A stretch of 64,000 bases of DNA from Antedon mediterranea (GCF_964355755.1 NC_092673.1:17729648-17793647), one strand, 5' to 3'; shown: positions 1,047-41,999, numbered from the stretch's first letter. The notes: generated from the letters alone by a model not told the origin. Program-made: numbers and translations.

Positions 1047-1202
1047 ATATTCTATTTTGTTTTCATTTATCAATAATGATAATTAGGATTTTATCACATT
1101 ATTTAGCAGTAATTGTTGTTGTTTGTATTAACAACAACAAAAAACAATTTCACATAATGTCTGTTGTTAGTATTTATAAACTTCATTATGATTCCTTTCC
1201 AG

Positions 1203-1313
1203 CATGGTGAAACTCCATTACTTTTATATCTGATGAGTAGAAATACAACACCTACCTTAGAAATAGTGACGTGTCTCATTCAGCATGGGGCACCAGTAGC
1301 ATTGCAAGATGAG
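1203..1313 (+). CDS. Ankyrin-repeat exon A1 (HGETPLLLYLMSRNTTPTLEIVTCLIQHGAPVALQDE), phase 0-0
   Basis: tttccAG acceptor, GTAATG donor, 111 nt open frame, G-x-TPL...IV..LI.HGA ankyrin consensus. Confidence 0.85.
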
Positions 1314-1535
1314 GTAATGTACAGGGATTTGCTAGTGTAATAGGCTAACATTCTATAGATATGCTGTGGTAAACCATTCTATTTTGTTCTACTCATTTAT
1401 TAATAATGATAATTATGATTATTTTACCACAATATTTAGCAGCAATTGTTGTTGTTTGTATTGACAAAAAAAACAAACAATTTCACATAATGTCTGTTGT
1501 CAGTATTTATAAACTTTATTATGATTCCTTTCCAG

Positions 1536-1640
1536 GATGGTGACACTCTATTACATACATATCTGAGACATGAAGACCCTACCTTAGAAATAGTGACTTG
1601 TCTCATTCAGCATGGGACACCAGTAGCATTGCAAAAGAAG
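1536..1640 (+). CDS. Ankyrin-repeat exon A2 (DGDTLLHTYLRHEDPTLEIVTCLIQHGTPVALQKK), phase 0-0
   Basis: tttccAG/GTAATG boundaries, 105 nt open frame, ankyrin consensus. Confidence 0.85.
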
Positions 1641-1859
1641 GTAATGTACAGGGATTTGCTAGTGTAATAGGCTAACATTCTATAGATATGATGTGGTAAA
1701 CCATTCTATTTTGTTCTACTCATTTATTAATAATGATAATTATGATTATTTACCACAATATTTAGTAGCAATTGTTGTTGTTTGTATTGACAAAAAAAAA
1801 ACAATTTCACATAATGTCTGTTGTCAGTATTTATAAACTTCATTATGATTCCTTTCCAG

Positions 1860-1964
1860 AATGGTAACACTCCATTACATTCATATCTGATGATTGGATA
1901 CCCTACCTTAGAAATAGTGACGTGTCTCATTCAGCATGGGGCACCATTAGCATTGCAAAATAAG
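1860..1964 (+). CDS. Ankyrin-repeat exon A3 (NGNTPLHSYLMIGYPTLEIVTCLIQHGAPLALQNK), phase 0-0
   Basis: tttccAG/GTAATG boundaries, 105 nt open frame, canonical GNTPLH motif. Confidence 0.88.
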
Positions 1965-3322
1965 GTAATGTACAGGGATTTGCTAGTGTAATAGGCTAAC
2001 ATTATATAGATATGCTGAAGTAAACCATTCAATGAGAGAAAAAAGTAAGCACATTAACAAAAATCAAATTTTATTAAAAGAAATCAAATTAAAATACTGT
2101 AATAACTAAACAGTTATATATGATTTATGATAACTGATTTAAAGTATACAGTTATCCATCAAATAACATTTATTTTTTTCTTAATGAACAAAAACAATCT
2201 ACTTGTAATTTTTTATATTCAGGTGAATCAGTATAATTTTGTTTAAATACTTTTTACCATAAAATAAATATATATTGCTCAATATGTAGCTGTAAAGATA
2301 ATAACAATTGAAAATGGTCTAATTAATTATAAATATGAAATAAAATGTATGTTGACAAATAATAAAATAGCAAACAAAAATGTTTGTGTTATTGTTAACA
2401 AAATTAATAGAATCTGATTGTAATAAAAAAAGAATTAGTTAGTGTTAATAACCTGCTCCTTACCTTACAAAAAAATACTTCTGTCAGTATATCCAGCTAA
2501 TTACAGTTTGAATATGGCCTTAAAGAGATCCTTTTCCAGCATTTTTTTTTGCAAACATTTTGCCACAAGTGGAAGAGAAATGTAAATAATGTTTAGTTTA
2601 TAGTGGTTTCCAAAATCTAAAAATGTTTGAGCAATGCAATTGGAAAAAGAAATTTAACATGAAATTATTCTTTTCAAACAGTGCCGTATCTTATCTTATG
2701 ACTTTTTGGAAAAAATGATTCTATAAAGTTGCCAGTTAAAATGTGATATACTAGTAAGTGCCCACAGATGGTTCTCGAATACTTGAACTTTGGTAAATAA
2801 CTGAAATTGTCTAAGTCGCACTGTACACAAAGCAAATGAATACAGATATGTTGGAATTTATGTAGTCAAATATAATTGTCATGCGGAGAATTACCTTAAT
2901 TTTGTTTATTACATGGTATTGTTCACCAAATTCCTGTCTTGGTACATTTTATTATGGGATGGTATCAGACTTCATGATATGATTTTCATTAAGGCAAATG
3001 GTTTAAACTAAATGTGTTATCGTTAATATCTAACTTAGCTTAATTATGATATTGGTTTCATTGTGTTAAAAATCAGTACTGAAAGTATTTACCAACTTTC
3101 TCAGATTTTAATGATTACTTACATTAAGTAATAGGCTAACAATCACTAGATCTGATCCATGGTAATATATTATATTTTGTTTTCATTTATCAATAATGAT
3201 AATTAATATTTTATCACATTATTTAGCAGTAATTGTTGTTGTTTGTATTTACAAAAAAAAAACCCAATTTCACATAATGTCTGTTGTCAGTATTTATAAA
3301 CTTCATTATGATTCCTTTCCAG

Positions 3323-6300
3323 GATGGTAACCCTCTATTACATGACTATCTGGGGAATGAATATACACCTACCTTAGAAATAGTGACGTGTCTCATTCAG
3401 CATGGGACACCTAGTATCCCCATTTTACACTTTCTCTGGGAAAAAATTAGAAACAAGTGTTTCTCAACTGATTTGTGTCATATGGGGTCTATATATCCAC
3501 CAAAAAAAAGTTCCAGCTCATCTGGCCTGGGGAAAGCCGCCATTTTGGATTTTCAAAATGGCCGCCATAAAATACAGGTTTTTGCTCATATCTCCTCTTC
3601 TACATCATGCATGGAAATGATTTTGGTGGCAAAGTGTATGTTTTGAGGGTCAAGGAATCTAAATACAGCATTTTGAAGTTCACTCAATGACCGCCATCTT
3701 GTTTTTTCAAAATGGCCGCCTTAAAATACAGATTTGTGCTTATCTCAGCTTCTACATCATGTATAGACATGGGAAAATGGAGGTTTTGACGGTCAAGGAA
3801 TCCAAATACAGCATTAATTTGAATTTCACCCAATGGCCGCCATTTTGAAAATCAAAATGGCTGCTATAAAATTTACAGATTTTTCCTCATATCTCAGCTT
3901 CTATATCATATGAACGTAATTTTGGTAGAAAAATATATGTTTTGAAGGTCAAGGAATTCAAATATAGTATTTTAAAGTTCACCTAATGCCCGCCATTTTG
4001 TTTTTCAAAATGGCTGCCATAAAATTTACAGATTTGTCCTCGTACCTCAGCTTCTACATCGTGCATGGAAATGATTTTGTTGGCAATGTTTATGTTTTGA
4101 GGGTCAAGAAATCTAAATACAGCTTTTTGAAGTTCACTCAATGACAACCATTTTGATTGTAAAAATGGCCACCATAAGCTACAGGTTTTTGCTAATTTAT
4201 GAGCTACTATGATTATGATTTTGCTAAGCCTATGTTTTGAAGGTTACAGAATAAAAACAAAATTCAGCTTTTGAAATACAGTTGGAAAGTGATAACGCGA
4301 ATAAGTCAATATGTTGGTGATAATATATGGGAACCACAATGATTATGACCCCAGGAGATACTGTACACAAGAAGATATCAGCGATGTACTGTAACTATAT
4401 CATTCGCGTGAAGAACCTAAAAATAAAATATTCTAAAAAAGTTTGTTAGACGACATTTTAAGATATTTTCCAAATCCTAAAGAGAAACATGGCCAACTTT
4501 AGTTAAGCATATTCCAATCAGATACATTATAGATAAAGCAAGTAAAGCAATTTAAAGCAACATATCTTATGTGACTGAATGGATGGTTATCTAATACACT
4601 GGGGGCTAACACTACTTCACCATAACTGGTCTGGATAATGCGATAACTGGACAAATCGACGATAGTTTATGCCGATCATTCTTTTTTATCCAATTAACAT
4701 GTCAACAGTTTATACAATGGTACAGCCACTCTGAAAACGTATATCTAGCTGCTCATCTACCAGTCATAATAATCAGACACGGAGGAGTTTATCTTTTCAG
4801 GAGCTTTCTTGGTTATATTGGACATACTGGTGGGTTGAGGTTTTGAAGTTGTGCATAACCTACTTTAAAGAGAGCTGTATATTCTAAAGCTCTTAGAGGA
4901 TGCAGCTATGTATCATATAATGATGACACGAGATGAGGATGTACCATTTTGTCTCCAGATATAGACACAGTATAGGACAATTGACTATGATGGCCAATAT
5001 GCCTGAACGACAAATTTCCATATACATACAATACAAGATGTTCCAAAAGAATGGATATCATGCAACGTGTTATAAATGGTGAAGTATCAGTTTTCAGACA
5101 TGAGCACAATAGAGAAAACCTTATGTATCTTGAAATTTGTCTTTCAGCATTTCCAGATATAGCCTTCCACTTTTGGCATTTTGGCCATGACCAGCTGCTG
5201 CAAATATAAAAGCATACTGTAGATGCTATATCTGAACCTGGAGCTCCCAATTGCACAATCACGCCTAAAAAGTTATACCATCTAATGATACAGCCACACC
5301 TTAAATGTTCTTGATATCTTTTTGACTTTCAGAGAAAGCTCTTAAGAATCTTTCGAGTTTGACGACAAATGGCAGTTTTCTTTCTCTAACTATTTGCATT
5401 ACTTTACGTCACATTGGTTGATCGAAGGTTATTAGGATGGCAGATAAGCAGCTAGATATAAACATAAATGCAGACCATTTAGGGTGACTAGTGTTAATCT
5501 CCCAGTGTATTACCATGTATTCATAAGATATTACTTGCTTTATCCATAAGTTGTACTTTTAACTGCAAGATGGCCATGCTTCTCTTTATATTTGGAAAAT
5601 ATCTTTACATGTCTATGTAACTTCTTTAGAATATCTTGTTTATTAGTTTCTTCTCGCGAATGATAGTTACAGTACACTCTCTGGTATCTTCTTGTATACC
5701 TCTTTGGTCGTAATCAGTATGGAACTCGATCTTGTGATTAACTCACGACGTTGAGATTGTGATAGCAATAGATCTCGGAGACTAGACAAAGGGGATTGTA
5801 CATAAATGTTGTTATTATTATATGTTGTGCCAGTTTGATTGGGAATTTTAAAACTATTACTGTATTTAACAAACTGTATGCAAAAAAAAGCAACATCTAA
5901 AGCCAGTGGAGCAGTAGCCTTCAACTATAAAGTTTGGTCCTAAACTTAGTTATCAAAATCATGTCTTCATTATGTATATGAGCTACGAAATTAGCAAAAC
6001 CTGTATTTTATGGCGGCCATTTTGAAAAACAAAATGGTGGCCCGGTTTTTAAATGAACTTTAAAAAAATGCTGTATTTGAAATCCTTGACCCTCAAAATA
6101 TATACATTGCCACCAAAATCACTTCCATACATTATGTGGAAGCTGAGATAAGAGCAAAAATCTGTATTTTTATGCTGGCCATTTTGAAAAACAAAATGGC
6201 GGCCATTGAATGAATTACGAAAATGCTGTTTTTCGATTTCTTGACACTCACAACTACACTTTGTCACTAAAATCACGTTCATACACGATGTAGAAGTTGA

Positions 6301-6664
6301 GATGAGTACAAATCTGTATTTTATGGCGGCCATTTTGAAAAACAAGATGGCGGACATTCAGTAAACTTCAAAATGCTGTATTTGGATTTATTGACTCTCA
6401 AAACATATACTTTGCCACCAAAATCATATCCATACATGATGTGGAAGCTGATATATGAGCAAAAATATGTATTTTATGGCGGCCATTTAAAAAATCCAAA
6501 ATGGCGGCTTTCCCCAGGCCTGATGAGCTGGAACTTTTTTTTGGTGGATATATAGAACCTATATAACTCAAATCAGTTGAGAAACACTTGTTTCTAATTT
6601 TTTCCCAGATTGGCCCTTTTTAGACTTAAAATAGGGATACTAACCAGTAGCATTGCAAAATAAG
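3323..6664 (+). pseudogene. Ankyrin-repeat exon A4 (DGNPLLHDYLGNEYTPTLEIVTCLIQHGTP|VALQNK) split by a 3.2 kb DNA transposon
   Basis: 5' part at 3323-3411 and 3' part AGTAGCATTGCAAAATAAG/GTAATG at 6646-6664. Removing 3412-6642 and one ACC copy restores an intact 108 nt exon. Confidence 0.85.
3412..6642. mobile_element. Non-autonomous foldback DNA transposon, Academ-like (TAG...CTA termini, 3 bp TSD ACC)
   Basis: Ends TAGTATCCC / GGGATACTA, with ACC at 3409-3411 and 6643-6645. Long inverted arms contain about 120 bp subrepeats with CCGCCATTTTG...CAAAATGGCCGCC palindromes. No intact transposase ORF. Confidence 0.85.
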
Positions 6665-7637
6665 GTAATGTACAGGGATTTGCTAGTGTAATAAGCTAAC
6701 ATTATATAGATCTGCTGAAGTAAACCATTTAATGAGAGAAAAAAGTAAGCACATTAACAAAAATCAAATTTGATTAAAACAAACCAAATAAAAAAATAAC
6801 TAAATAGTTATATATGATTTATGATCTGATTTAAAGTGTACAGTTACCTATCATATATAAACATAAATCTTTAATTTTCTTAATGAACAAAAAAATCTAT
6901 TTTTTTAATATATTCAGTTATTAATTAACAATTATTGACAACGGTCTAATTAATTGTAAATATGAAATAAAATGCGACAACTATTAAACAACTAAAAATG
7001 TTTATGTTAAAAAAATTAATAGAATCTGATTTTAATAAAAAACGATTATTAATTAATAATGTGCTCCTTCCCTTATCTTACAAAAAAAATGCTTCTGTCA
7101 GTCTATCCAGCTAATTATGAAAATGGCCTTAAAGAAATCCTTTTCCAACCTAGGATCTTTTTGTGCAAACATTTTGCCACAAAAGGAAGAGAAATGTAAA
7201 CAATGTTTTGTTAGTTTTCAAAAACTAAATTGTTTGAGTAATGCAATTTAAAAAAGAAAAGTAATATGAAATTAGTCTTTTCAAACTGAATGCTTTTAAG
7301 AAAAGTTCCGTCTCTTATCTTATGACTTTTTTGAAAAAATTAATTCTCGTTAAAATATAATATACTAGTAAGTGCTCACAGATGCTTCTCGAATACATGA
7401 ACTTTGGTAAATAACTGAAAATTGCACTGTACACAAAGCAATACAGATATGATGGAATGTATGTATTCAAATATAATTGTCATCCTGAGAATTACCTTAA
7501 TTTTGTTTATTGCATGGTATTGTTCACCAAATTCCTGTCTTGGTACATTTGATGATGGGATGGTACTGTATCAGGCTTCATGATATGATATGATCTTCAT
7601 CGAGGCAAATGATAAATTTGTTTTGATCGTCAATATT

Positions 7638-8620
7638 CATTCATTCATTCATTCAGGCTGATCGCCTGACTTTATTTACTTTAGGCCTCTGGCCCCTAGT
7701 AATTAATAAAATAATAATTACATTGAAAAACTAGAGGGTACTCCGAGAGTACAAACCTCCGCCTACTGTAAAATTCCCCTACATAAAATGCCCCCTGAAT
7801 ATTTTTTTTTTACATTTTTTTTTATTAGTTCTAAGTGTAAATATGTTAACTGCACACTACAAAGTTGTGGATGACAGTGTGGTTTAATGGTTATGTATCC
7901 AGCCTCTCACAGTTGAGATTGCTGGTTCAAGCCCCACTGAGGTTTTTTTTTTTTTATTTCTTTTTTTTTTTTTTTTTGTGGACCTTGATCTTTGAGACTG
8001 ACCCTTCAAAATTTAAACACAATTTATATGATGTGTCATTGATCATTGTGGCTAAGTTTGGTGAGAATCGGATCGAAACTGTGGTCTCTAGGCTGTAAAA
8101 TAGTTTTTTGTTAGTTGTGACCTTGACCTATGACCTTTCCCCCTCAAATTCGAACTCGTCCGAGCTTTTTGGGCATAGATCATTGTGTCCAAATTTGGTT
8201 AGAATCGGATAAAAACTGTGGCCTCCAGGCTGTTCACAGACACACACACAAACACACAAACACACACACAAACATACAGGGGTGAAAACATAACCTCCTT
8301 GGCGGAGGTAATAAAGCAATTTATGGTCACAAGATAAATGAATTAATTAATTTCGTTCTCTAAGCAAAACATATATCTTAACTTATAAGCATGATAAATA
8401 TATTTAGATAGATTATCAATAATTATTGGATCCTGTGATGATATTAAACGGCAGAATTTAAAAGTATTTGGATTTTCAAAAAATAAAGAAGGTATAAATT
8501 TTTTTCTGATTTCCTTGTAACGAGAGCAAACTGTAACAAAATGATATTCATCTTCAACTTCATTTATATCACATATTTTACATAACCTATTTCTGCGTTC
8601 TATTCTTTTCCAGTACAGTA
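7638..8620 (-). mobile_element. 3' fragment of a LINE (C-terminal CCHC zinc knuckle), interrupted by the HINE
   Basis: ORF 8343-8654 contains RLCKICDINEVEDEYHFVTVCSRY; (ATGA)n tail on the minus strand at 7638-7654. Confidence 0.65.
7731..8313 (+). mobile_element. Helentron-associated (HINE/DINE-1-like) non-autonomous element
   Basis: 5' subterminal ACCTCCGCC is complementary to the 3' hairpin ACCTCCTTGGCGGAGGT. Internal (CA)n tract, A-rich insertion site, and a near-identical inverted copy at 53398-53953. Confidence 0.7.
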
Positions 8621-9199
8621 AGTAGATAACCATAATAAATGCACCCGCTCCCAAAGTAATAATGACTTATCTATTCCATTATGGAATAACTCTCAGGGTA
8701 AAAGAACTTTTGTTTATAGATCAACTAAATTATGGAATTCTCTACCAAATAACACAAAATCAGAACTGCATAATATGTCTTTGGCAACTTTTAAATCTTC
8801 ACTTTAGAAAACATATATGTATTAACCTTTTTGCCTTCACAATTGTAAATAGTTTTATATCTGTTTTCTTTCCTTTTGTTTTTCTTTTTATTTTCTTTTT
8901 GTTGTAAATATGTTTACTGAACCACTTTGGAAATCAGTACATTTGTATTGAAAGTGTATTTCAGAAAGAAGAAATAAATAAATAGATTTTAATGATTACT
9001 TACATTAAAGTAATAGGCTAACAATCACTAGATCTGATCCATGGTAAGATATTATATTTTGTTTTCATTTATCAATAATGATAATTAGGATTTTATCACA
9101 TTATTTAGCAGTAATTGTTGTTTATATTAACAAAAAAAAACAATTTCACATGTCTGTTGTCAGTATTTATAAACATTCATGATTATGATTCCTTTCCAG

Positions 9200-9304
9200 T
9201 ATGGTGACACTCCATTACATTTATATTTGAGGAGTACTGCACCTACCTTAGAAATAGTGACGTGTCTCATTCAGCATGGGACACCATTAGCATTGCAAAA
9301 TAAG
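9200..9304 (+). CDS. Ankyrin-repeat exon A5 (YGDTPLHLYLRSTAPTLEIVTCLIQHGTPLALQNK), phase 0-0
   Basis: tttccAG/GTAATG boundaries, 105 nt open frame, canonical GDTPLH motif. Confidence 0.88.
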
Positions 9305-10324
9305 GTAATGTACAGGGATTTGCTAGTGTAATAGGCTAACATTCTATAGATATGCTGTGGTAAACCATTCTATTTTGTTCTGGTTTACCACATTATTTAG
9401 CAGTAATTTTTACTGTATTGTCTCATATTATGGTATATCTGCAGCATTGCAAAATAGGGTAATGTAGGCTTACAAAGAATTGTCAGGACAATTTCACATT
9501 TTATTGATATCATGTGTATTTATAAACTTCAACTTCAGTATCAATTAGCCTCCATATTAATCAATAGTATTACTACCTCAAAGAGCAGTATTATTTAATC
9601 AGACTTTCAGATATAGAATTCTCAAGTGTTTGATTTTTTTCACATTTTTCTCTTTTTACACATTCTACTAACAAGTTTGTTTTGATTTTGATATTCATTT
9701 ATAAGTCAACTATAATTGTAATGTGTTGTTGTTGTTTTAATATTTCATTTGTATCTGGATAGTATCCAAATATTATTTTCTTTGAAAGTTTATAGTAAAA
9801 CTATTTGTTGTTTTATATTATGGCTCAAACATTTTAACACATCTACCTACTGTTCCAAAGTAAACTTTTATTCAATTTATCTCTCTCTCTCTCCTCCATC
9901 TTTCAATGTTGAAGGCGGTAGACTATAAACAGCAGCACTTAAGTTTTGGTTTGGATACAGGAGTTATAGGTGGCGCACTGTACAAGTTGATGTCATTTAT
10001 TGGCAAATAGTAATTTCTATTCACGTCCTAATTTACAACCAATGTTAAAAAATAGTAAATCTACGTGTTATCACATGATGCTCTTTCATCCAATCTCTAG
10101 ATGGTAAATGTTTGAGACATGACATAATACTGTATGTATGTGATGCGTAATTAAAGTGTGTTATATTGTATATCAATAATTTCTCAAAACTACTAATAAC
10201 TAAACCCATTTTTTTAATAGGATGGATATACACCTGTCTCAGTTTTACAAAATAACTGGATGATAAGGGACCAGAGTAAAACTGAAATTTTAAACTTCTT
10301 TAAAAGTAAGTGAAATTTTAATTA

Positions 10325-15767: not shown

Positions 15768-15860
15768 ATTTACCAAGTACTGTTGATGAGCAATTTCAAA
15801 CACAATTTCAGAAACAGACAAGTGATGAACAGAAAACAAAACTTCTTAAGCCAGAGAGTG
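15768..15860 (+). CDS. Candidate linker exon of ROCO gene 1 (93 nt; phase 1-1 reads DLPSTVDEQFQTQFQKQTSDEQKTKLLKPES)
   Basis: Polypyrimidine tttttttAG acceptor and GTAAGT donor. Open in phase 1, which fits acceptor 20994, and also in phase 0, which fits acceptor 20954. Confidence 0.55.
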
Positions 15861-20834: not shown

Positions 20835-20993
20835 AATAATTAAAGATTCTGAGAAAATCAATCAATCAATATATCTTTTAAAAATCAATTATCTTTATTT
20901 AAATCAATGCATATAACCAAATTCTAGTTTTTTTTTAACTTTATTTACTCCAGATGTTTAAAAAATCTATTAAAATCTTGATTCAATTTTCAG

Positions 20994-30100: not shown

Positions 30101-33100
30101 TATTTAAATCAATGCATATAACTTATAATTCATCATAGTGATGAATTAAATCTAATCATATTTTTAACCATTCAAAGACAAAAAAAGTTATCGCATTCTA
30201 CAGGATCATATAATATTTATTTTTACATAAAATGTCGCGATCGGAGTATGTTTGCATCACGCGTCATTTCTACCATTTCCGGTTCGATCTGGGCGTATAG
30301 CTATCTAGCTAGTAGGCAAAGGCCTAGAGGCATTAATCAAAAAGCTAGTTAGACCTAGCCTAGGTAGGTAGGCTATTTACAAATCTATCTCCAATTTACT
30401 TGTATTTTACAATACACTTGTATTACAATATATCCACTGAAAAGGCATTTTCTTTGGTTTGGTGATTTTTATTTTCAAGTACACCTTGTCATAAAAAGAC
30501 AAGAATACTCGTGAATTATGGCCACAAAATTTATGTCGCTGACACAGTATTCATGAACAAATTATTTTCAACTTCGTCTGACTGATGACATCACATACAG
30601 TCCTACGATCCTTGTGATTTGATTGGTCAAATTAAAGCGAATTTGCAAGCGAAAGCGAAAAAGTTGCCCATGGAGCAACTCTAGCGAATTCACGCGTGGA
30701 GCCTTCGCTAGGTTGAGAATCGAACGACGCCTACAAGTTCGATTTGATATTTACACTGAAATCGTCTGTCGCGACAATTACGGTTCGATTTGACGCTTGT
30801 TGCGTGTTGCTTCGCGTGTAAATTGTTCAGTGTGCACCGACCTTTAATAAGATCTAAAAAACGTAGAGAATGGGACTTTAATCTTACTAAATCTTATTCT
30901 CATATAATACATTTACAATATAGAACAGAAGTTTTAAACTGTTTCAAGTTCATCTACTTTGTGTGTATCAATCTATACAAAGTTGTTACACTGGAAAAAA
31001 AAATCCAGTAACCTATACTTTTCCTTTATTTGTTTTCTGTTTTCAATCATCACTGATTTTCAATATTATCAAAGAATTTTTATATGAAAGGTCAACGTAT
31101 AATTTAAAATATTTTTCCAGAAGGCTTTAATATTAATCAGTCAATATTTGATTAACAAAATTATTTTTGCAGATCTTCATGACATCACGATCACTTTACA
31201 TTGTTGTGTTTGATCTCAGTAAACCCTTGGATGATCTTGCTACTTTCATTGATTCCACTGGAGTAAGTATTTCTAGAACATGGCGGCAGTAAGGCATTGT
31301 GATTAAAAAATTCTTCTAATTGATAAGAGCATGCATTTTATGCATTAAAAACAGTTTGACTATTTTACAATATTTTATTTCATACCTTCCAATAAGATGT
31401 AATAATGAATGTTTTTAAAAACTAAACATTTCAAGTTTAACTTTGATTAAGTGTTCTTATATATTTTTTTTACAGAAAAAGTGTAAACATCAATGGACCA
31501 ATCTCCAGTTCATATTATCTTACATCCTGTCAGTTTATTCTCATAGTCGTATTGTAGAAGAAGATAAAGGGAAGGGAGTTCACAAACCAACTATCCTTAT
31601 TGTGGGTACACATAAGGGTAAGCTTGGTAAGAGTGAAAAAAACCAGAAGTCTGAGGTAATACTTAATGCTACCAAGAATATATTGCAGGTCTATAATAAG
31701 CAAATGAGGAAATCTGTTGTAGTGTATCAATTAATTTGATTACTTAAAGATGTATTGTCCCTTGAAACACAAAAAATGAAAAAAAAAATATTCTAAATTT
31801 AAATTAGCCATATCAAAGTAATATTAAAGTTATTCACTTTAAGTCGAAAATTTGAGCCAAAAACAACAAGTTTACGTAATTAACAGGTAAATTAATTAGA
31901 TTACATTTCGTCTGGGAAATCGTCGCAAGCGAAAGTAAACAAAGATTTCAAACCATGAGTATGCATTATGCATGATGCTAATTAGGATTGTTTACAACTC
32001 GTCACGGTTGAAAAGGTGTTTTTACACAGATCGCGAAGAAGTTTTATGATTATGCATACAGAGTAGCCAAACAAGCGCGTTGCATTATGAGATATGTTTT
32101 GATTGAAAACTTTGACTGGAAGTCAAAGTTATTTTTTGAACAAAAAAACATCTGTGTTTCGGTTAAATTTTTTTTTTTTCGACTAATTTTTGGTGAAAGT
32201 TAATAACTATTATGATACTTCAAAATTACCCCCTTTTTTTGGAAAATTATAAAAAAAAAAATTTTTTTTTTAATTAGTCAAAGGGACAATACATTTTTAA
32301 GTCTATTGTGCAATCACTAGAGTAAGCCCATATCTATCATATCATATCATATCATTTATTTCGCCAATATACAGAACAGTACAAAAAAAAAAACAATACA
32401 AAAGTAAGTCAATGAGGCCGGATAACTAAAAGTTTTAAATATAAATAACTGTCGATTCCATTAAAATTGAGATAAAACTATAAAATTCAGAAATGGATTT
32501 TTATAAAAAATTGTTAATTTAAAAAGATAGAATTAAGAAAATATCTTTAAAATATACATAAATATATATGTTCAGTTTAAAACAGATTGGTAAAATATTT
32601 CTTAAGGCTATGCTTAAAACAGTTTATATTAATTAATAGTTGGTCGCAGAGATCATAAAGAATTTGTTAATATTAATTTATAAATTTTTTATTATTAGGC
32701 AAAAAAGGTATTTAAAAAGCTTCGAAATGCAATTAAAGAGAAACTGTATGAAGTACATGTGCATAATCATTATTTTGCCATCGAAAACAGTAAAAGAACA
32801 ACAGATGAGAGCTTTAGTGAACTCAAAAAGGTTATTGATGAGTTTATGTCAGATTTAGAAAAGGATGTTCCTTTAAAGTGGATGCGTTTTCGATGTGGCA
32901 TACATAATCTAAGGAGAGAAAAACACTTTTCTTTGTGTCCTGTTGATGAGGTAAATTTATGTTTTTTCAGAATAAAAATGTATTTAAAATAATAATATCG
33001 AAAGTAGTATAAACAAAAGAATCTTCCCATTATTAAAAACAATTAGTGTTAGTAAATATAATAATGTTGATTGGTAATATGGCCCTAACGAATGAGCCAG

Positions 33101-36100
33101 ACAACTTGACAACCTACAGTGGTAATATTACATGGAATATTCTCCGCAATGTTGCCATTCTGTAAGAACAATCGTATAAAAAAAAATTCTATTCCCCAGT
33201 GAGAGTAATGCTGTCCTTCAGATCCTACATTTTAAAGTAAATGACAAAAGTAACAGTATTTACGCAAAACTTTTTTATATGGTAATTGTACCTCCAAAGA
33301 TTTTAAAATTAATAATGTTATAAATATATACCTACCAATGATTTCATATTTTATTTAAATTTGAATAGTAATAATATTTTTCTTTAGCTTAAAATGCTTG
33401 CAAGTGAGAATGGTATTGCAGATGAATCAATCCTCCTTAACTTCCTGTATGATCTTGGTGAAATTATTTACATGCCTGACAAGGAATTATTAAGAGATAA
33501 AGCAGTGTTAGATCCAATGCAGCTGGTAGAAATTGTGACTGCTTTTGTAACAGTCATTCCACCAGAATCTCCAGTAAGTAGGCTCATAAAAATGTTAATT
33601 CAGTGTTCCTTGAGAAATTAATAGGCACATGTGAATTCCTATAGGTACTGTAGTATGAAAAGCAATATCTGACAGTTACATTATAGTTTAACATTGTGTG
33701 GTATATTGTACATATCAGATGTGAAAGTATTTATTTATTTATTTTTATTTTAGTATTTTATAAGTATTTATCTATATTCTTCTAACATTATTCCTGTATC
33801 CCCTTCAGATTTTAAATTGTTTGATAACTTAATAAACACAAAATTGTAAGTATGGCTAATTATTATTATTATTTTTTTTTAAGCTTCCCATGTTTAGGAA
33901 AGCTTTTGATAATCTTGACAAGGGCATACTTGAGGAAGATTTGTTGCGAGCATTATGGAAAAAGCGTAAAGTTGACGAAGGAAAGAATTTTAAGTTCCTT
34001 GTAAAACTGATGATTCAATTAGGTTTCATTTGTGAGAGGGAGACAACCAGCAGCCAAGATGTGGCAAGTACATCTACAGTAGGTTTTGTTCAGTTATCTT
34101 TTGTAACATGTTTGGTATGCAAGATTATGTACTAAAAAATGATTTTAGGTATTAATATACATACAGTAATTGGTGAAATTTTACATAAAATTTTAGTCAC
34201 ACATATTTTGAATAAATGTGCAGGAAATGATCTTTAGTTTCTTATTAAAAGAAATTTTATTGACATTTTACAATTTAACGATTTCAGGAATCTGTTGGAA
34301 AGCGGTCATTTTTTGTGCCACTACGCCTTGCTTTCAAGACATCAACTGAAGTGAAACCAGTGCCTGATGAATTTCCAGCTATCAGTGTCTATTACGACTT
34401 TAAGGGATATCTGCCAGATGTATTGTTTCCATATATGATTATAGATTTCCTCAACAAATTTCAAAAGAAAGGAGTTGACCCAATACTCTTGTATAATCAT
34501 GCTGAACTTTACTTCGACCAAGATCATGATGTGACTTTATCTCTTGTCAAAGTCATAACTATGGAGGATGAGCGAAAGTTCTTGTTAAAGGTACTGTATC
34601 ATAGAATATCTTGTGAATAAATCATAATTTAATCTATTTCTAAACTCAAATTAAAATATCAAAACATCACTTTCCTTTTTTTCAGGTGACTATTAAAAGA
34701 ACTCCTGCTCGTAATGAAACAAGTAATGAGGAACCCTCTTCTGAAGCATGTAAAGAGGTATGTTACATTTCATATCAGTTTGGAGAACTATATATTTTTT
34801 TATAGATGTTTTGGTTGATTGTTATAATACGATATAGTTTAAAATAATTTAAACATTTAAAATAATTTTTTTTTTTAGCTGTTTCATCGTCTTAATTTGT
34901 ATTTGAAATTGTAATTTTGTAGATTCTTTAATTTTCATAATAAAAACACCACCCTAAATATCAGAATTGAAAGCTATTAACTATTGCTAAGATCTACCAT
35001 TTATAAGGTTAAAACTTTATTGATTTCAGTTAACATTATTAATTATGATATAATATAACATTGATTAGTAACAATTGATATAAAAACATCTTTAAAATTT
35101 AATTATAAATTGATAAAATTTTAATATAATATCAATTTAAAGTACAAGCAACTTAAAGTACAGTTGTCAAAACTAGTTGTGATTGACTTTTTATTATATA
35201 ATATTAATTAATAACAAATGACTTTAAAAATTCACTAGATTGGTATTTTAGATATTTATTTTATTTTTTATTGTTTTAGTTTTTCCTTTTATTGTATTGT
35301 AAATTTTTAGTGAACAAAACATTTTAAGAATTTGTGCTGCTGATTCAGAGTTGCTACATTAAGTATGTGTTTAATCGACATATAGTGTTAATTGCAGTTT
35401 GCCATTCAATTTGTACCTTTAGGTTTTGTTAACGATTCAGAAGTCATTTGAACCTACTAAAGATGGTGGTAGAAGAGGGATTCAATATGAGAGATGCATT
35501 CTTTGTGATGTATGTAGTGATGCATCAGAAAAGAAGCACATTCAAAATCTTGAAGATTTCCAGTATAGAAAGTTAAAATGCACCAAAACTGGCAAGTCTG
35601 TTACGATGGATGTTACACGTTACCAGCGGCTATTTGGAGGTAAGAGTAATATATACAAGTTTATTTTATTTATTTTGACCAATAAACAATAAACTGAATG
35701 AACAATATGATTATTCTGTAATTTAATTAAACAAACACATGCAAATTATTAAATATCTTCATTCCTCTTACCAGTAGTAGTACTATCAGAATCATTATTG
35801 ATAATCTATACATTGTTACAACATGCTGCTATTAGCTGTGATATCTTCATTCCTCTTACCAGTAGTAGTACTATCAGAATCATTATTGATAATCTATACA
35901 TTGTTACAACATGCTGCTATTAGCTGTGATATCTTCATTCCTCTTACCAGTAGTAGTACTATCAGAATCATTATTGATAATCTATACATTGTTACAACAT
36001 GCTGCTATTAGCTGTGATATCTTCATTCCTCTTACCAGTAGTAGTACTATCAGAATCATTATTGATAATCTATACATTGTTACAATATGCTGCTATTAGC

Positions 36101-39100
36101 TGTGATATCTTCATTCCTCTTACCAGTAGTAGTACTATCAGAATCATTATTGATAATCTATATATTGTTACAACATGCTGCTATTAGCTGTGATATCTTC
36201 ATTCCTCTTACCAGTAGTAGTACTATCAGAATCATTATTGATAATCTATACATTGTTACAACATGCTCCTATTAGCTGTGATATCTTTATTCCTCTTACC
36301 AGTAGTAGTACTATCAGAATCATTATTGATAATCTATACATTGTTACAACATGCTGCTATTAGCTGTGATATCTTCATTCCTCTTACCAGTAGTAGTACT
36401 ATCAGAATCATTATTGATAATCTATACATTGTTACAACATGCTGCTATTAGCTGTGATATCTTCATTCCTCTTTCCAGTAGTAGTACTATCAGAATCATT
36501 ATTGATATAAATACATATATTTTTACCAGAAACTAGCTTGTGTGTGTTAATAGCATCCATTGAATTAATTATTGTGTATTTCATTTGTTACAGGTGATGT
36601 TGGAACAGCAAGTCTAAATCCAGGTATGTTACAATCAATAGGTTGATGTAAAGTTTGTGGTGTGTATATGTGTATATAGTTCAGAAAAGGACTGTTGAGT
36701 TGTTTCTTCTTTGGTCGTCTTCAGGAGTGAGAATACAGAAAGTCCAGGACATGTGGTGTACCGCAAACTTTATATCAACATAATGTTACATTTACTATGA
36801 TAATGATGTAGACTAAGTGGATATTAAGCAATGCACACTGTTGCCATTCCACAACACATAGATCTGTAAAAAGAGATTGTATAGTATTAGTATATAGTAT
36901 TTATTTAGTTTATTAAAAATGATGTTCTATGGGGGGTGTTTATTTGAGGGAGGCGTTTATTTAAAGCAAAGTGTTTATTTGAATAAATACGATAATACCA
37001 GGTATGAGAATGTAATGTCTTATTATATGTGATGATTGAGCTAGGAACAAATGAAATATGATATCTTGTAGTCCATGACAGAATGCTACGCAATCAACAC
37101 AGGAAGTTGTACTCTGCAAACAAGGGATGTCTGTGATTGGACATAAATCATTTGGCCAGCGTTAGAACAGAATGATCAAACTTAAAATCAAGTTCATTAC
37201 AGGACCTATTATTAATTATGAGTTACATTCATCGTATCACAAATTTGGTCTAAATTTGTATCATTTATTTAAACAAAAATTTATATTATATAATAAACCA
37301 CAGAATATGTAGATACGCTACCACAAAACATTTCATTGCGATCTATATTATTTTAAATACAGATTTTCTTTTTTTAAGGTACTTTTTAATGTCTGGTCGT
37401 CTATATACAATATCCCTAGTCTGTGTGAACACTATTGCATTGCATTATATAGTTTTTTATTGATCATGTATTATACATATATAGTACATATACAGTATAA
37501 TTAACTGTAAAATTGTCATCAATTTAAGTTCAACCATATAATATTACAATTTTGTATTTACAGGTGTTCCTCTGAGTACCGTCAAAAGAAAGTCAGCATG
37601 GACGTCGACTGGTACTGGTAAGTTTGAATACCAGTAGTCCGGTGGCAGGAGGGGGATATCACCACCCAAAAGGGGACAAATTGCCATCCAACTTTTCTAG
37701 ACCAGAATTTTCCGTAGATTACGAATATGGAAGGTAATCGATCAGGATAGGAAGCGTTTTCGAGATATAAGGGGTTAAAGTTCAAAATTGACCAATATAA
37801 AAACATGCTATATCTCTGGAAATTCTGGACGTAGTGAGATAATTTTGGTGTCAAATTGTTCACAATGTATATATGTTTATATTAGCTCTAACAGAACCTT
37901 CTTTGAAAAATTGACCGGAAACCCCATTGTTAGCAATTTTGACCTTTGACCTCTTTTTGCTATATCTAAGTAACGGCAGGTCGGAGAGAATTAAAAATAG
38001 GAGCAAATTGTTCCCAAGATATACATTTATATTCAGTATAACAGATGATATTGCTTGAAAATGACCGGAAGTGTGGTTATTAACCTTTGACATAATTGAA
38101 TAAGGTTATAAAAACATAAATTAATAAATATTTGTCGTAAGGAGCCAATTTTGGTGTCAAATTGTTCACAATATATATATTTATACTTGCCATAATGCAA
38201 CATTTTTTTCAAAAAGTGACTGTAATTTTAATCTTTGACCTGTTTTTCTCATCTAAATAACGACATGGCATTTATTATTTTATTTTATTTTATTTTATGT
38301 CTTTAGGCAATGTGGCCAAGGATTACCAATAGTGAATTAATCACTGTCCTATCAGATAGGTGGTAATCCCCCTGATACAGGGGCAATTGTGTGAACCAGT
38401 TCACCGGGGTAACCCCCTACTCTTTTTCGAATAATGAACTGGGTTCTTTAAAGTACACACAGGTTATAACTGTGTACACTGGACCTACGGTTTATAGTCC
38501 TTATCCGAGAAGACTTGTTCCACCACCAGAACTAGGAGCGAGTCGGCCTCGAACCCTTGCCGATGTTGTTGTTGGCTCTTTAGGTACGGTAAACGCCGCC
38601 CCTGCCTTAACCGCTCGGCCATATGACTCACTCAATAGAGATTTCTAACGGCAAATTGTTTATAATAGATATTTTTATTCAATCTAATAGATTATACTGT
38701 TTGAAAAATACAAGTGTGATTATTGCCTTGAATCCTGTACATAAGAGCCTATCAGGGCGGATTTAATTCAAAGAGGTGTGGAAGGGGAATAATACTATTA
38801 CTATACAGTACAATGTCTTTCTTTTGAGCAATTTCAATCAGGTATCCATGTATCTCCAATAAACGGAATGTACGGCTCATAGAGAATTCAGAAGTTACCT
38901 TTGGTTCATTTTGGTAAATCCATAAGTGTTCCTTAAGGATCGAGAGTGCACAGGCAGCTTTATTCCATGTGCCTGTCTATATAAACCCACAGTGTCACCC
39001 ATTATATTTCCATTAAGGGGCTTAATGTCCATCCATGGAGGACCGGCCCTTGGGTTAATTTGGGCAAATCCATAAGTGTTCCTTAAGGATCGAGAGTGCA

Positions 39101-41999
39101 CAGGCAGCTTTATTCCATGGTTCTGCCTGTCTATATAAACCCACAGTGTCACCCATTATATTTCCATGATGGGGCTTAATGTCCATGGAGGACCGGCCCT
39201 TGGGTTAATTTTGGCAAATCCATAAATTTTTCTTAAGGATCGAGAGTGCACAGGCAGCTTAATTCATGGGCCGCGCCTGTCTATATGAACTCACAGTGTC
39301 ACCCCTTATATTTCCATTATGGGGTATAATGTCCATCCATGGAGAACGACCGGCCCTTGCGTTCATTTGGGCAAATCCATAAATCTTATTTAAAGATTGA
39401 GGGTGCACATTTAGTTTTATTCCATAGTTTACCCCATACTAATTTCTAATACAGGGCCTTATGTAGCACACCACATAGAGATCCCAAAAGGGTCCTTAGA
39501 GTGTTCATTCGGGCAAATCCATATAGGTTATTTTAGAATCCTTTGTATACAGGAAACTCTTTCCTGTATGGGCCAAACTATATAAAAATGGTGGTCTGTC
39601 TGTGTAGTGAGTTGTGGATTGAGTTTGGCCACCTGGATCTGGCTATGCCCTATCCTGTACGAATTGGTATTCTTTTCCAAAAACGAATATTGTAGCCCTA
39701 ATAAATGCAACTGTATAGTGGCAAATCATTGAAGGTCAGCGCAACATTTTAACATCATAACATTTTAATCGTCATAATATTAATTTTATTATTTATTTTA
39801 CAGTATTATATTAATACATTTAAAATAATGCGCACTAGAAAAAATATAAAAATACCATAACTTCACTGATCAAATAACGTGATTACATTTATGAACATCG
39901 ATCTCATAGTTTGAATAACTTTGCATTATTTAGTATATCATTTATTCAAATGTTGACCTTTGACCCATGTCAACTTGTGTAATGATAAATGTGCTCTTTT
40001 GATTGTGTATGATTGATAGATGTCTTAACAGAATGATAAAACATAACATTTTGTCCTAAATGTTAGTTTTTATTTGGTTTTAAATGCAAATTGGTTGATT
40101 GGTCAATATTGACATTTGACCTTTAATTGCCAAGTATTTGTTTTATAAGGCGACTGAATAACACCATACAATACATATAACCATACAAATGTATTAAAAG
40201 ACCAAATTGAACTTTGACCTTTTATCTCTTCCTATTCGCTTCCTATCCTGATCGAAGTCTGATTTGATTAAATACAGTATTATAATGAAATAACATAACT
40301 TTACTAATCCAATAATTTGATTACTTGTAAACCATCAATAACAACTTTGCATTTATTTGTTAACTAATACGCGTATTAAAATGTTGACCTTTGACCTTAC
40401 ATCAACTGATGAAATTGACCTTATGTCAACTGATGAAATGATGCATTCGCTCTTTTACATTGCGTATGATTGATTAACAGGATGAGAAAACATCCGATTT
40501 TTTATTAAATATTAGTTTTTATTTGGTTTTATAGGTACGTTCTATGATTGGTCAATATTGACATTTGACCCTTAATCACAAAGGATTTTTTTTTCATAAG
40601 GTGATTGAATAGACACTTATAATCATAAAAATGTAATAAAAGACCAAATTGTGCTTCAATAAATTTGTTATAATACATATACATAATACATTGTTGTAAT
40701 TGGTCAATTTTGAACTTTGACCCCTTATATCTCGAAAACGCTTCCTATCCTGATCGATTACCTTCCATATTCGTAATCTACGGAAAATTCTAGTCTAGAA
40801 AAGTTGGATGGAAATTTGTCCCCTTTCGGGTGGTGATTCCCCCCTCCTGCCACCGGACTACAGTATGTAATTATGTGACAGCCAAGCAAGCAAATTTTAA
40901 GAAATATTTCATTTTAAAATTTATGCCATATCTCTTTAGAGAAGAAATTGTAAAATCGATTATGAGAAATTGCATTTGCACTATACTTATTACAATACTT
41001 CTTTTTAAAAAAATCTGATAGCCATGACTTACAATTTGCCAGCAAACTTTGGCCTACTGCACTTTTTTGTATTTTTTACTATAATATATAATTTTGGTTT
41101 ATTTTTGTGTGCAGAAAAACAATAAAAAAAAACTAGATTTAAACTGTGACTGTGATGAGTTAGGTTATCCATGCAATGACTACCTATTAAGCCAGGCCTT
41201 GGTGGCACTACTAGTCTATGAAAAGAGCAAAATATTTCAGTTGATAAAAAAAAATGCCTCGAATGGTCTGCAATGTGCTGATTTTTAATAATCGAAAATT
41301 ATAAAATTTGTAAACATGCATACATGCATGTTATATGCACTATGCAACGATGGCTATTCTCACATGATGACAGACATATGACGTGAGGAAAGAATAAATA
41401 AAGAAAGAAATAAAGATTCAATAAGGTTGTATGCATAATAATAACTTTTTTTTTTTTTTTTAACTAAAGTACTATCCATGAGTAACTATCGAAAACTACT
41501 TGTGGAAGTGTCATCATGGTGGGAAGAACACGATAAGATCAATTTACTTAAATTCATCCTTTTAATGTTCAAACAAGTTACTCTAACTGACATAGAGAAG
41601 AGTGATGATCCATTCGAACTCTTTGAATTACTTGGAGCTCCTGGAATAATTAGCCCGTCAAATGTGGATGTTCTACTTGAAGCTGTTGTAATCGGAGGGA
41701 TGGAGGGTGTGGACGAGGAAAAGATCAAGCAATTGATACCAAGCTTTCCTGGATTCAGTGAAATAGCAATTCCTGACTGCTGGGATAAGCGTCAAAAGTT
41801 GATTAAATTTGGGCGTAAGATAGGTATTGATGAGCAAAAGAAAGTTGGACGCGTGTGTGGAGTGAAAAGTAAACCTAAAGATGTTTGGGCTTTGATGTTT
41901 GAACTTGAAAGGCAACGACTTTTCACTGAAGAAAGGACAAAATTCCTTCAACTGCTAAAAGACATTGACCTGGATAGACATGCAGCATTATTAGAATAG
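20994..41999 (+). CDS. ROCO protein gene 1: Roc GTPase - COR - linker - tandem death-fold (DED-like) domains; multi-exon, probably with the upstream ankyrin exons as N-terminus
   Basis: Phase-consistent GT-AG exons: 20994-21141, 21546-21631, 21969-22027, 22835-22907, 23968-24128, 31173-31262, 31476-31655, 32699-32950, 33388-33573, 33884-34078, 34288-34590, 34686-34757, 35423-35639, 36594-36623, 37564-37617, 41470-41999 (TAG). Motifs: G1 GQEGVGKT, G2 TDGI, G3 IYDHGGQ, LYIVVFDLS, G4 IVGTHKG, COR VPLKW, LNFLYDLGEIIY and FFVPLRL. Confidence 0.9.
22050..22561. mobile_element. MITE with terminal inverted repeats of about 50 bp (PIF/Harbinger-like, AWT flanks)
   Basis: AGGGTGGTTTCGCAACCATACGAATACGATAACGAAAACGGATACGTCAC versus GTGACGTATCCGTTTTCGTTATCGTATTCGTAAGATTGCGAAACCTCTCT; flanks AAT and ATT. 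Confidence 0.75.
23968..24128 (+). CDS. ROCO gene 1 exon with the Roc G3 motif (FNIYDHGGQLIYHGIHR)
   Basis: Matches the Roc WDFxGQxxYxxxH consensus; CAG/GTAAGT boundaries. Confidence 0.88.
24233..28530. mobile_element. Degenerate Kolobok-like TIR element hosting the L2 LINE
   Basis: ttaa-AGTGGGATTCCGGGTTTGAAATT versus AATTTAAAACCCAAAATTCTCCT, an imperfect inverted match. Confidence 0.45.
25745..28346 (+). mobile_element. 5'-truncated L2/CR1-group LINE (partial AP endonuclease plus reverse transcriptase) in an intron of ROCO gene 1
   Basis: ORF 25830-27836 has AGDFNFH, GHTLDL, SDH, NYRPVSNL, LDLSAAFDTVDH, GVPQG and FYADD. A frameshift continues into ORF 27800-28273. 3' stem-loop AGCGCCAT...ATGGCGCT and (GATT)n tail. 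Confidence 0.95.
31476..34590 (+). CDS. ROCO gene 1 exons encoding the Roc G4/G5 region and the COR domain
   Basis: Exons 31476-31655, 32699-32950, 33388-33573, 33884-34078 and 34288-34590, all phase 0; KPTILIVGTHK, YFAIENS, VPLKW, FLYDLGEIIY, LMIQLGFI, FFVP. Confidence 0.88.
31748..32296. mobile_element. Kolobok-like MITE with TTAA target duplication
   Basis: TTAA-AGATGTATTGTCCCTT ... AAGGGACAATACATTT-TTAA. Confidence 0.75.
35753..36507. repeat. Intronic minisatellite, 88 bp unit, about 8.5 near-identical copies
   Basis: Unit ATATCTTCATTCCTCTTACCAGTAGTAGTACTATCAG...GCTGTG; the ORF-track hits recur at 88 bp spacing. Confidence 0.97.
37635..40860. mobile_element. Non-autonomous Academ-like DNA transposon (TAG...CTA, 3 bp TSD CAG, TIRs of about 160 bp)
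   Basis: cag-TAGTCCGGTGGCAGGAGGGGG ... CCCCCTCCTGCCACCGGACTA-cag; internal tandem repeats of about 140-150 bp at 38895-39400. Confidence 0.85.
38271..38625 (-). mobile_element. tRNA-derived SINE nested in the Academ-like element
   Basis: Minus strand has A box TGGCCGAGCGGTTAAGG, B box GGTTCGAGGCC and an (AATAA)n 3' tail at 38271-38297. Confidence 0.75.
41470..41999 (+). CDS. Terminal exon of ROCO gene 1: two tandem death-fold (DED-like) domains
   Basis: Long poly-T acceptor, phase 1 entry. YRKLLVEVS...LLKFIL...PFELFELL...IISPSNVDVLLE and RQKLIKFGRKI...VWALMFELERQRLF...FLQLLKDIDLDRHAALL fit the DED helical pattern (pattern recognition, not an HMM hit). Confidence 0.78.

What the first reader, a model, noticed from the sequence alone, without database searches (positions are those of the whole stretch)
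1203..9304. Exon-cassette ankyrin array with hypervariable binding surface (natural DARPin-like library)
Each repeat is one symmetric phase 0-0 exon. The flanking intron segments are nearly identical, and the scaffold PTLEIVTCLIQHG is invariant, with only rare synonymous changes such as ACG/ACT. Variation concentrates at position 1 (H/D/N/D/Y), position 3 (E/D/N/N/D), position 8 (L/T/S/D/L) and after YL (MSRNTT/RHED/MIGY/GNEYT/RSTA, with in-frame indels giving 35-37 aa). These correspond roughly to the beta-turn and helix-1 positions that form the ankyrin binding groove and are randomised in DARPins. Codons diverging more than adjacent introns suggest diversifying selection. The pattern parallels the LRR exon shuffling reported for brown-algal ROCO genes and the high-internal-conservation repeats of fungal NLRs.
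Basis: partly seen in the sequence, partly recalled or inferred. Interest (0 to 1): 0.92.

Follow-up and report, generated by a model that had tools for sequence, protein, structure and literature searches.

The report
Shuffled ankyrin sensor on feather-star ROCO

Summary
The array is real but is only the front of a larger gene. Five phase 0-0 ankyrin exons lie where stated. Units 1, 2, 3, 5, a capping exon and 17 downstream exons join into a stop-free 1,079-aa ANK-ROC-COR-DED frame. The downstream part equals NCBI's ankyrin-less Antedon mediterranea model XP_071948768.1. A paralogue model (XP_071948802.1) joins such repeats to ROC. Site models favour diversifying selection at unit positions 1, 3, 8 and 11-14 (p 4e-4 to 5e-5; 3 of 252 recombining neutral simulations reached it), but a locally raised rate is not excluded (p 0.06-0.18). 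Four of these match designed-ankyrin library positions; the rest is a loop insertion. Units are mosaics, and the ankyrin and DED modules appear swapped between distant genes. Expression, alternative splicing, somatic change and immune function are untested, so 'library' overstates. It works like brown-algal LRR-ROCO and fungal high-internal-conservation receptors. The scan noted a similar mussel gene earlier (unchecked). New variant of a known kind.

The parts
1203..1313 (+). Ankyrin unit 1, one exon, 37 aa, phase 0-0
1536..1640 (+). Ankyrin unit 2, one exon, 35 aa, phase 0-0
1860..1964 (+). Ankyrin unit 3, one exon, 35 aa, phase 0-0
3323..3411 (+). Ankyrin unit 4, 5' part (29 codons plus 2 nt); cut by the transposon and carries T4P in the TPLH motif; likely dead and skipped
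3412..6642 (.). Non-autonomous DNA transposon inside unit 4: ends TAG...CTA, 3-bp duplication ACC, long inverted arms with 150-bp subrepeats, no long ORF. Academ-like by recalled end signature only
6646..6664 (+). Ankyrin unit 4, 3' part, followed by its intact donor GTAATG
9200..9304 (+). Ankyrin unit 5, one exon, 35 aa; 33 of 35 residues equal repeat 1 of paralogue P0029
9419..9464 (+). Decayed 3' half of a sixth unit with donor; no acceptor or 5' half
10221..10305 (+). C-terminal capping repeat exon, phase 0-1; 54% identical to the caps of P0029 and P0036
15768..15860 (+). Linker exon, phase 1-1; joins the cap to ROC as in P0029
20994..31655 (+). ROC GTPase exons (20994-21141, 21546-21631, 21969-22027, 22835-22907, 23968-24128, 31173-31262, 31476-31655); P-loop GQEGVGKT, YDHGGQ, VGTHKG
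32699..37617 (+). End of ROC, COR and linker exons (32699-32950, 33388-33573, 33884-34078, 34288-34590, 34686-34757, 35423-35639, 36594-36623, 37564-37617)
41470..41999 (+). Last exon: DED-like effector module and stop; 65% identical to the C-terminus of NB-ARC-TPR protein P0002
1..1008 (+). 3' end of a likely LTR retrotransposon (ORF 1-471, purine tract, TG...CA segment 875-1008) just upstream of unit 1; further units and the start exon would lie beyond it, outside the window
   Evidence: identity read from the sequence, no Pfam integrase hit

Best explanation
The array is likely the N-terminal variable sensor of a crinoid ROCO gene (ankyrin repeats, cap, ROC GTPase, COR, death-effector module) that would act as an intracellular, probably immune or cell-death, receptor. 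Shown: each repeat is a symmetric phase-0 exon in a near-identical intron cassette, and the exons join in frame with ROC-COR-DED. Amino-acid change clusters at the beta-turn, the end of helix 1 and an enlarged helix1-helix2 loop. Units are recombinant mosaics, and dead units lie among live ones. Inferred: germline unequal crossing-over and gene conversion, guided by the conserved flanks, add, remove and exchange repeats within and between paralogues while selection keeps new binding residues. Ligand binding would switch the ROC-COR dimer and expose the DED pair to a FADD/caspase-8-type pathway. The transposon-split unit 4 would be skipped without frameshift because all units are phase 0-0.
For: Frame: units 1, 2, 3, 5 + cap + 17 exons give 1,079 aa, no internal stop, all junctions AG/GT. 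The downstream part is NCBI model P0001, with Pfam Roc 1.9e-13, COR-A 4.2e-10 and DED 2.6e-4. Models P0029 (same chromosome) and P0036 (another, full length with N-cap, 8 repeats, ROC, COR, DED) join this ankyrin type to ROC. Selection: M2a vs M1a p 3.7e-4 without and 5.2e-5 with the loop, sites 1, 3, 8, 11-14; without broken unit 4, p 3.7e-3 and 1.2e-4; 3 of 252 neutral simulations with a separate genealogy per codon reached the observed ratio. In codons 1-10, first and second positions show 12 changes in 20 columns against 2.95 expected from introns, third positions 2 in 10 against 1.5; P stays 0.001-0.005 at intron divergence 0.10-0.12. The same columns vary in the arrays of P0036 and P0093. 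Fold: pLDDT 95-98 over P0029 residues 11-100, helix 1 at 10-15, loop 16-21, Foldseek top hits DARPins. Unit positions 1, 3, 8, 11 equal ankyrin positions 3, 5, 10, 13, 4 of the 6 library positions in PMC4308713 (P 0.009). Mosaicism: 95 of 153 informative site pairs are incompatible, with 8 different splits. Exchange: unit 5 is 33/35 identical to a P0029 repeat while their caps are 54% and their ROC regions 65% identical. Window repeats average 58% identity to P0036 repeats but 38% to P0093 repeats, although P0036 groups with P0093 by ROC (100/100) and is 27-29% identical to this ROC-COR. The DED exon is 65% identical to an NB-ARC-TPR protein but 23-33% in the 8 of 15 own-clade models that hit. 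16 of 26 ROC-COR hits lie on one chromosome.
Against: No transcript evidence. NCBI's own model of this gene omits the ankyrin exons and starts at 15081, and RNA support for P0029 and P0036 is unknown; P0029 begins in what is intron acceptor sequence here. No start codon or N-cap lies in the window, and a retrotransposon end sits 195 nt upstream of unit 1, so the gene could be decapitated. When the variable region is allowed its own rate, omega above 1 is not significant (p 0.059 for codons 1-10, 0.11-0.18 for codons 1-14), and third positions in codons 1-14 are also raised (6 of 14, P 0.019). Only five units were analysed, with hand-written codon models, a hand-anchored loop alignment and regions chosen after seeing the data. 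In the four-unit no-loop fit every variable site was called selected. P0093 filled only 18% of the ROC tree columns, and the repeat tree is poorly resolved. The ROC G4 motif reads THKG, without the usual Asp (recalled consensus). No ligand or immune phenotype is known.
Confidence: 0.66

Rival explanations
1. Old, diverged variable segments are kept while gene conversion homogenises the flanking intron and scaffold, or the segment is a local indel and mutation hotspot. The contrast between exon and intron would then not need ongoing positive selection.
For: Flanks near the exons are more alike than the long spacers. A free local rate with omega=1 fits nearly as well. Third positions in codons 11-14 change 4 times in 4 columns, and ACA slippage explains the length variants.
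Against: In codons 1-10 third positions are not raised while first and second positions are. A model with free omega and no rate shift fits codons 1-10 better than the reverse (-233.3 vs -235.0). The same columns vary in three separate arrays and match known binding positions.
Confidence: 0.15
2. The array is a decaying or orphaned 5' end. Retrotransposon insertion cut it off, the ROC-COR-DED part is silent or expressed without ankyrins as in the NCBI model, and the units serve at most as a donor reservoir for paralogues.
For: Unit 4 is broken, a sixth unit is decayed, and a retrotransposon end lies upstream. No start exon is in the window. P0001 omits the array. Only 1 of 4 candidates in the ankyrin-unit protein search was a hit.
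Against: Four units, the cap and all 17 downstream exons are free of stops and frameshifts with canonical splice sites. The scaffold has 0 changes in 26 first and second positions against 3.8 expected (P 0.02). P0001, P0004 and P0006 start in two different stretches of the cap-linker intron (15081; 13688), as expected if prediction missed a repeat-like 5' end (inference).
Confidence: 0.13
3. The cassettes are combined within the animal, by alternative exon skipping or somatic recombination, into a per-cell repertoire (Dscam- or VLR-like).
For: All units are phase 0-0 with identical splice signals, and unit 4 has to be skipped for the frame to survive. Alternative splicing is reported for brown-algal ROCO LRR exons (PMC11378527, passages).
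Against: Only four usable units are in view. No inverted copies were found and no recombination signal was seen. Germline processes explain every feature observed.
Confidence: 0.06

Closest known systems
Brown-algal LRR-ROC-COR candidate receptors with exon shuffling (Zambounis 2012, PMC3341825: abstract, section 15, passages; Teng 2024, PMC11378527: section 10, passages)
   Same: ROCO core; one repeat per symmetric exon; inactivated repeat exons among live ones; diversifying selection on repeats; intra- and intergenic exchange; expanded family
   Different: Ankyrin instead of LRR; phase 0 instead of phase 2; an animal; C-terminal DED module; no inverted copies in the window; splicing not shown
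Fungal NLRs with high-internal-conservation WD40/ANK/TPR repeats (PMC13449251, passages)
   Same: Near-identical repeats with a few hypervariable positions; repeat exchange between paralogues; ANK units of 33-36 aa; nearby transposons; cell-death effector
   Different: The switch is ROC-COR, not a STAND ATPase; the sensor is N-terminal; each repeat is its own exon with a duplicated intron cassette
DAPK1 and bacterial AP-GTPase (ROC-COR) conflict proteins (PMC8195603, passages)
   Same: ROC-COR with rapidly evolving N-terminal repeats and a variable C-terminal effector
   Different: Bacterial versions use LRRs and no introns; DAPK1 (recalled) is a conserved kinase with diverged ankyrins
DARPin and ANK-N5C designed libraries (PMC4308713, PMC8683736, passages)
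   Same: Constant scaffold; variation at ankyrin positions 3, 5, 10, 13 (and 14 of the recalled classic set)
   Different: Positions 2 and 33 hardly vary; an extra 2-4 residue loop after helix 1 is the most variable part; a few germline repeats, not a library
Antedon mediterranea models XP_071948802.1 (P0029), XP_071964198.1 (P0036), XP_071944626.1 (P0093); Anneissia XP_033120802.1 (P0177) and LOC117112651 (P0027)
   Same: ANK-ROC(-COR-DED) architecture in crinoids; the Antedon three have similar repeats varying at the same columns
   Different: All are unnamed automatic models; the P0027 repeats are diverged (31% mean identity)

Membership tests
Ankyrin repeat | GxTPLH ... LEIVxxLLxxGA consensus and helix-turn-helix-hairpin fold | tested here: met
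   Pfam Ank in 4 of 5 pieces; paralogue model pLDDT 95-98 over the repeats, Foldseek hits to DARPins at rmsd 1.5-2.8
ROCO family | ROC GTPase followed by COR in one polypeptide | tested here: met
   P0001: Roc 1.9e-13, COR-A 4.2e-10; exons mapped
ROCO family | The ankyrin exons belong to the same transcript as ROC-COR | tested here: inconclusive
   Phases and frame fit and paralogue models join them; no RNA seen; NCBI's model omits them
ROCO family | Intact GTP-binding motifs | tested here: inconclusive
   G1 GQEGVGKT and G3 DHGG present; G4 reads THKG in this clade, THRD in Anneissia; activity untested
Ectocarpus-type exon-shuffled receptors | One repeat per symmetric exon | tested here: met
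Ectocarpus-type exon-shuffled receptors | Inactivated repeat exons in the introns | tested here: met
   Unit 4 and the remnant at 9419-9464
Ectocarpus-type exon-shuffled receptors | Intact repeat exons on the non-coding strand | tested here: not met
   None in the 64-kb window
Ectocarpus-type exon-shuffled receptors | Diversifying selection on repeat sites | tested here: met
   weaker when the local rate is free
Ectocarpus-type exon-shuffled receptors | Intra- and intergenic repeat exchange | tested here: met
   95 of 153 incompatible pairs; unit 5 vs P0029 33/35 (protein level only)
Ectocarpus-type exon-shuffled receptors | LRR or TPR as the repeat | tested here: not met
   The repeats are ankyrin
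Ectocarpus-type exon-shuffled receptors | Alternative splicing of repeat exons | not testable with these tools
   No RNA holder listed
Fungal HIC NLRs | High internal conservation (Psim at least 0.7) | tested here: inconclusive
   Mean pairwise identity 0.73; T-REKS Psim itself was not computed
Fungal HIC NLRs | STAND ATPase (NACHT or NB-ARC) core | tested here: not met
   The core is ROC-COR
Somatically diversified receptors (VLR, Dscam) | Per-cell assembly or mutually exclusive splicing | not testable with these tools
   No single-animal long reads available
Academ DNA transposons (element in unit 4) | TAG ends with 3-4 bp duplication, and Academ transposase | tested here: inconclusive
   Ends and duplication seen; the signature is recalled and one search found no paper; no transposase ORF

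The most novel reading that the evidence does not exclude
Feather stars run a modular intracellular receptor system. Ankyrin exon cassettes are traded among many ROCO loci and between distant ROCO clades, death-effector exons are shared with NB-ARC-TPR proteins, and the cassettes are further combined per cell by exon skipping or somatic recombination. That would be an ankyrin-based anticipatory repertoire in a deuterostome invertebrate.
Probability: 0.1. Interest if true: 0.92.

Novelty: new variant of a known kind. Interest (0 to 1): 0.66.

Why it matters
It extends the 'one repeat, one exon, shuffled, selected' receptor design from brown algae (LRR, TPR) to an animal ROCO gene with ankyrins and a death-effector module. 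That supports an immune role for invertebrate ROCO expansions, whose function is open. The sensor end is missing from the public gene model, and none of the 16 same-chromosome ROC-COR hits carries an ankyrin domain, so such arrays may be widely overlooked. The transposon-split exon gives a built-in test of exon skipping. The variable helix1-helix2 loop is a natural binding-surface design not used in standard DARPins.

Tried and rejected
No whole genome is held, so copy number, upstream units and the start exon could not be examined. Expression: no RNA holder listed among 15 runs. The 4 runs laid are contigs that cover introns and repeats, and none of the 15 joints shown (of 734) is an exon-exon join; this is no evidence either way. 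Summed depth over units 1-2 is higher than over 13823-15156 (45,416 vs 2,731-3,320 in X1; 180 vs 19-23 in X5), but the tool states that this is not a copy number. Variation across genomic copies and individuals stays unexamined. The single-sequence AlphaFold model was unusable (pLDDT 37.9). The alignment-based model is good only over the ankyrin part (ROC part mostly below 60) and is of paralogue P0029; no coordinates were available, so surface clustering rests on alignment and secondary structure. The protein atlas gave no answer. Rfam found nothing in 1-16000. N-caps of P0036 and P0093 have no match in the window. Most of the 150 representative-library hits are generic long ankyrin proteins. 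The repeat tree did not converge, so only pairwise identities are used. Paper searches for ROCO + exon shuffling + ankyrin (3 hits), crinoid + ROCO + immune (0), ROCO + ROC-COR + death effector + ankyrin + invertebrate (at least 4 of the 5 terms; one listed), Antedon mediterranea + genome (15 of 57 listed), ROCO + echinoderm + expansion + immune (6 listed) and ankyrin + HIC + selection + NLR (1) showed no description of this system. The library lacks most subscription papers, and Fig. 2 and the supplements of PMC11378527, which list about forty animal ROCO architectures, were not seen. That ankyrin genes often have introns at this repeat boundary is recalled; searches did not find the source. 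Rejected: 'five intact exons'; a stand-alone ankyrin protein; calling it an NLR.
Full report
Observation. Five units follow an identical acceptor at 1203, 1536, 1860, 3323 and 9200. Units 1, 2, 3 and 5 are exons of 111, 105, 105 and 105 nt, phase 0-0, with GTAATG donors, and each hits Pfam Ank. The quoted residues are correct. Unit 4 is split after codon 29 by a 3,231-bp element with TAG...CTA ends, a duplicated ACC and 277-nt inverted arms; its last codons and donor lie at 6646-6670, and read-through stops at 3646. A decayed 3' half of a sixth unit lies at 9419-9464.

What gene it is. Downstream frames hit Roc and DED. The last exon matches at 100% an Antedon mediterranea (feather star) model, P0001 = XP_071948768.1, which has ROC, COR-A and a DED but no ankyrins. 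Its first exon lies at 15081, inside the intron after a capping-repeat exon at 10221-10305. Joining units 1, 2, 3, 5, the cap (ends in phase 1) and P0001's 17 later exons (the first starts in phase 1) gives 1,079 aa without a stop, every junction AG/GT. Paralogue model P0029 on the same chromosome has this order: two such repeats, cap, the same linker, ROC. P0036 on another chromosome is full length: N-cap, 8 repeats of the same type, cap, ROC, COR, DED. Of 26 ROC-COR hits, 16 lie on one 36.2-Mb chromosome (some may be fragments of one gene), none annotated with ankyrins, and a second ROC gene starts at 57 kb. That the array is spliced to ROC is an inference from phase, frame and paralogue models; no RNA was seen.

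Is the variation selected? The codon models were written here, since codeml was absent. M0 gives omega 4.3 without the loop (p 0.021) and 2.4 with it (p 0.068). M2a beats M1a at p 3.7e-4 and 5.2e-5, with sites 1, 3, 8 and 11-14 at posterior 0.89-1.0. Without unit 4, p is 3.7e-3 and 1.2e-4. Neutral simulation with an independent genealogy per codon reached the observed ratio in 3 of 252 runs. Tree-free: codons 1-10 have 12 changes in 20 first and second positions against 2.95 expected from 27 changes in 183 intron columns, third positions have 2 in 10, and the 13-codon scaffold has 0 in 26 (P 0.02). The long spacers are more diverged than the near flanks; P is 0.001-0.005 at 0.10-0.12 and 0.026 at 0.15. 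Against: if the variable region has its own rate, omega above 1 reaches only p 0.059 (codons 1-10) or 0.11-0.18 (codons 1-14), and third positions in the loop vary too. Selection is likely but not separated cleanly from a local rate or conversion effect with five units.

Where the sites lie. By alignment to DARPins, unit positions 1, 3, 8, 11 and 12 are ankyrin positions 3, 5, 10, 13 and 14, and the exon border falls between positions 2 and 3. The ANK-N5C library randomises 2, 3, 5, 10, 13 and 33, on the beta-turn and helix 1 that form the binding surface (PMC4308713, passages); 4 of these 6 are among the 7 selected sites (P 0.009). Positions 2 and 33 hardly vary. In the model of P0029 (pLDDT 95-98 over residues 11-100; top Foldseek hits DARPins) helix 1 spans 10-15 and the variable RSTA stretch opens a six-residue loop before helix 2, longer than in DARPins. 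The arrays of P0036 and P0093 vary most at the same columns.

Shuffling. Among 18 informative sites across flanks and exons, 95 of 153 pairs are incompatible and 8 splits occur, with neighbours more compatible than chance (p 0.015): the units are mosaics. Unit 5 is 33/35 identical to a P0029 repeat, more than to any neighbour (at most 80%), while the caps are 54% and the ROC regions 65% identical. Window repeats are 58% identical to P0036 repeats and 38% to P0093 repeats, yet P0036 and P0093 group by ROC (57% over 116 aa; 100/100, though P0093 is short) and P0036 is 27-29% identical to this ROC-COR. This points to transfer of the ankyrin module between distant ROCO clades; the direction is not established. 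The DED exon is 65% identical to the end of an NB-ARC-TPR protein and 23-33% to own-clade DEDs in the 8 of 15 models that hit.

Mechanism. Most likely a germline-diversified intracellular receptor (0.66). Conserved intron flanks let whole exon cassettes be duplicated, lost and converted. Phase symmetry keeps the frame and lets dead units be skipped. Selection fixes new groove residues. Binding would switch ROC-COR and expose the DED module to a caspase pathway, which follows from what ROC-COR and DED domains are known to do and was not tested. Rivals: conversion or hotspot without ongoing selection (0.15), a decapitated or decaying array (0.13), per-cell diversification (0.06).

Comparison. 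It works like Ectocarpus LRR-ROCO genes, where each repeat is an exon, dead exons lie in introns, and repeats are exchanged and positively selected (PMC3341825: abstract, section 15, passages; PMC11378527: section 10, passages). It also resembles fungal high-internal-conservation NLRs (PMC13449251, passages) and bacterial ROC-COR conflict proteins (PMC8195603, passages). It is a ROCO if the splice holds. It is not an NLR and not an LRR-ROCO. ANK-ROCO architecture is known (Gonium, oomycetes), but six searches showed no report of exon-cassette, hypervariable ANK-ROC-COR-DED genes in an animal; figures, supplements and most subscription papers were not visible. Unchecked notes from this scan describe a similar mussel gene and choanoflagellate cassettes, which suggests recurrence but is not support.

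Verdict. Observation partly confirmed, interpretation partly supported. New variant of a known kind; interest 0.66.

Noticed in passing
window 54010-64000 +: A second ROC gene follows in tandem (exons near 57082-57245, 57564-57650, 58064-58114, 59578-59724, 63747-63836; 67-82% identical to P0001), with no ankyrin units before it. NCBI model P0012 ends with sequence matching 54000-54050 and 57079-57189, so a similar tandem pair likely exists elsewhere and is fused in annotation.
   Followed up: partly
window 41470-41999; P0002, P0003: The DED exon is 65% identical to the C-terminus of an NB-ARC-TPR protein on another chromosome but about 30% to DEDs of its own ROC clade, so effector exons appear shared between ROCO and NLR-like genes.
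   Followed up: partly
P0007, P0016, P0017, P0026, P0046: The same ROC clade carries DED, tandem DED, kinase, death or OGFOD2-like N-termini instead of ankyrins.
   Followed up: partly
window 31600-31620 +: The G4 motif reads VGTHKG in nearly all Antedon members of this clade but VGTHRD in Anneissia; nucleotide specificity may have changed.
   Followed up: no
window 59754-63578, 35753-36507, 51948-52356: Minisatellites of 81 bp (47 copies), 88 bp (8.6) and 68 bp (6); the first two lie in ROC-gene introns.
   Followed up: no
window 25743-28273 and 54264-56375 +: LINE-like reverse transcriptase ORFs with frameshifts, the first inside a ROC intron; named from the translation by eye.
   Followed up: no
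window 17288-20840 and 44294-46674; 7816-8312 and 53398-53904; 37634-37796 and 40699-40861; 50651-51716: Further inverted-repeat elements and dispersed copies of high-depth repeats.
   Followed up: no
P0034 (Haliotis rufescens XP_048241358.1): A mollusc protein with a caspase-like N-terminus, a P-loop domain and more than 20 near-identical ankyrin repeats varying at few positions; read by eye, not scanned.
   Followed up: no
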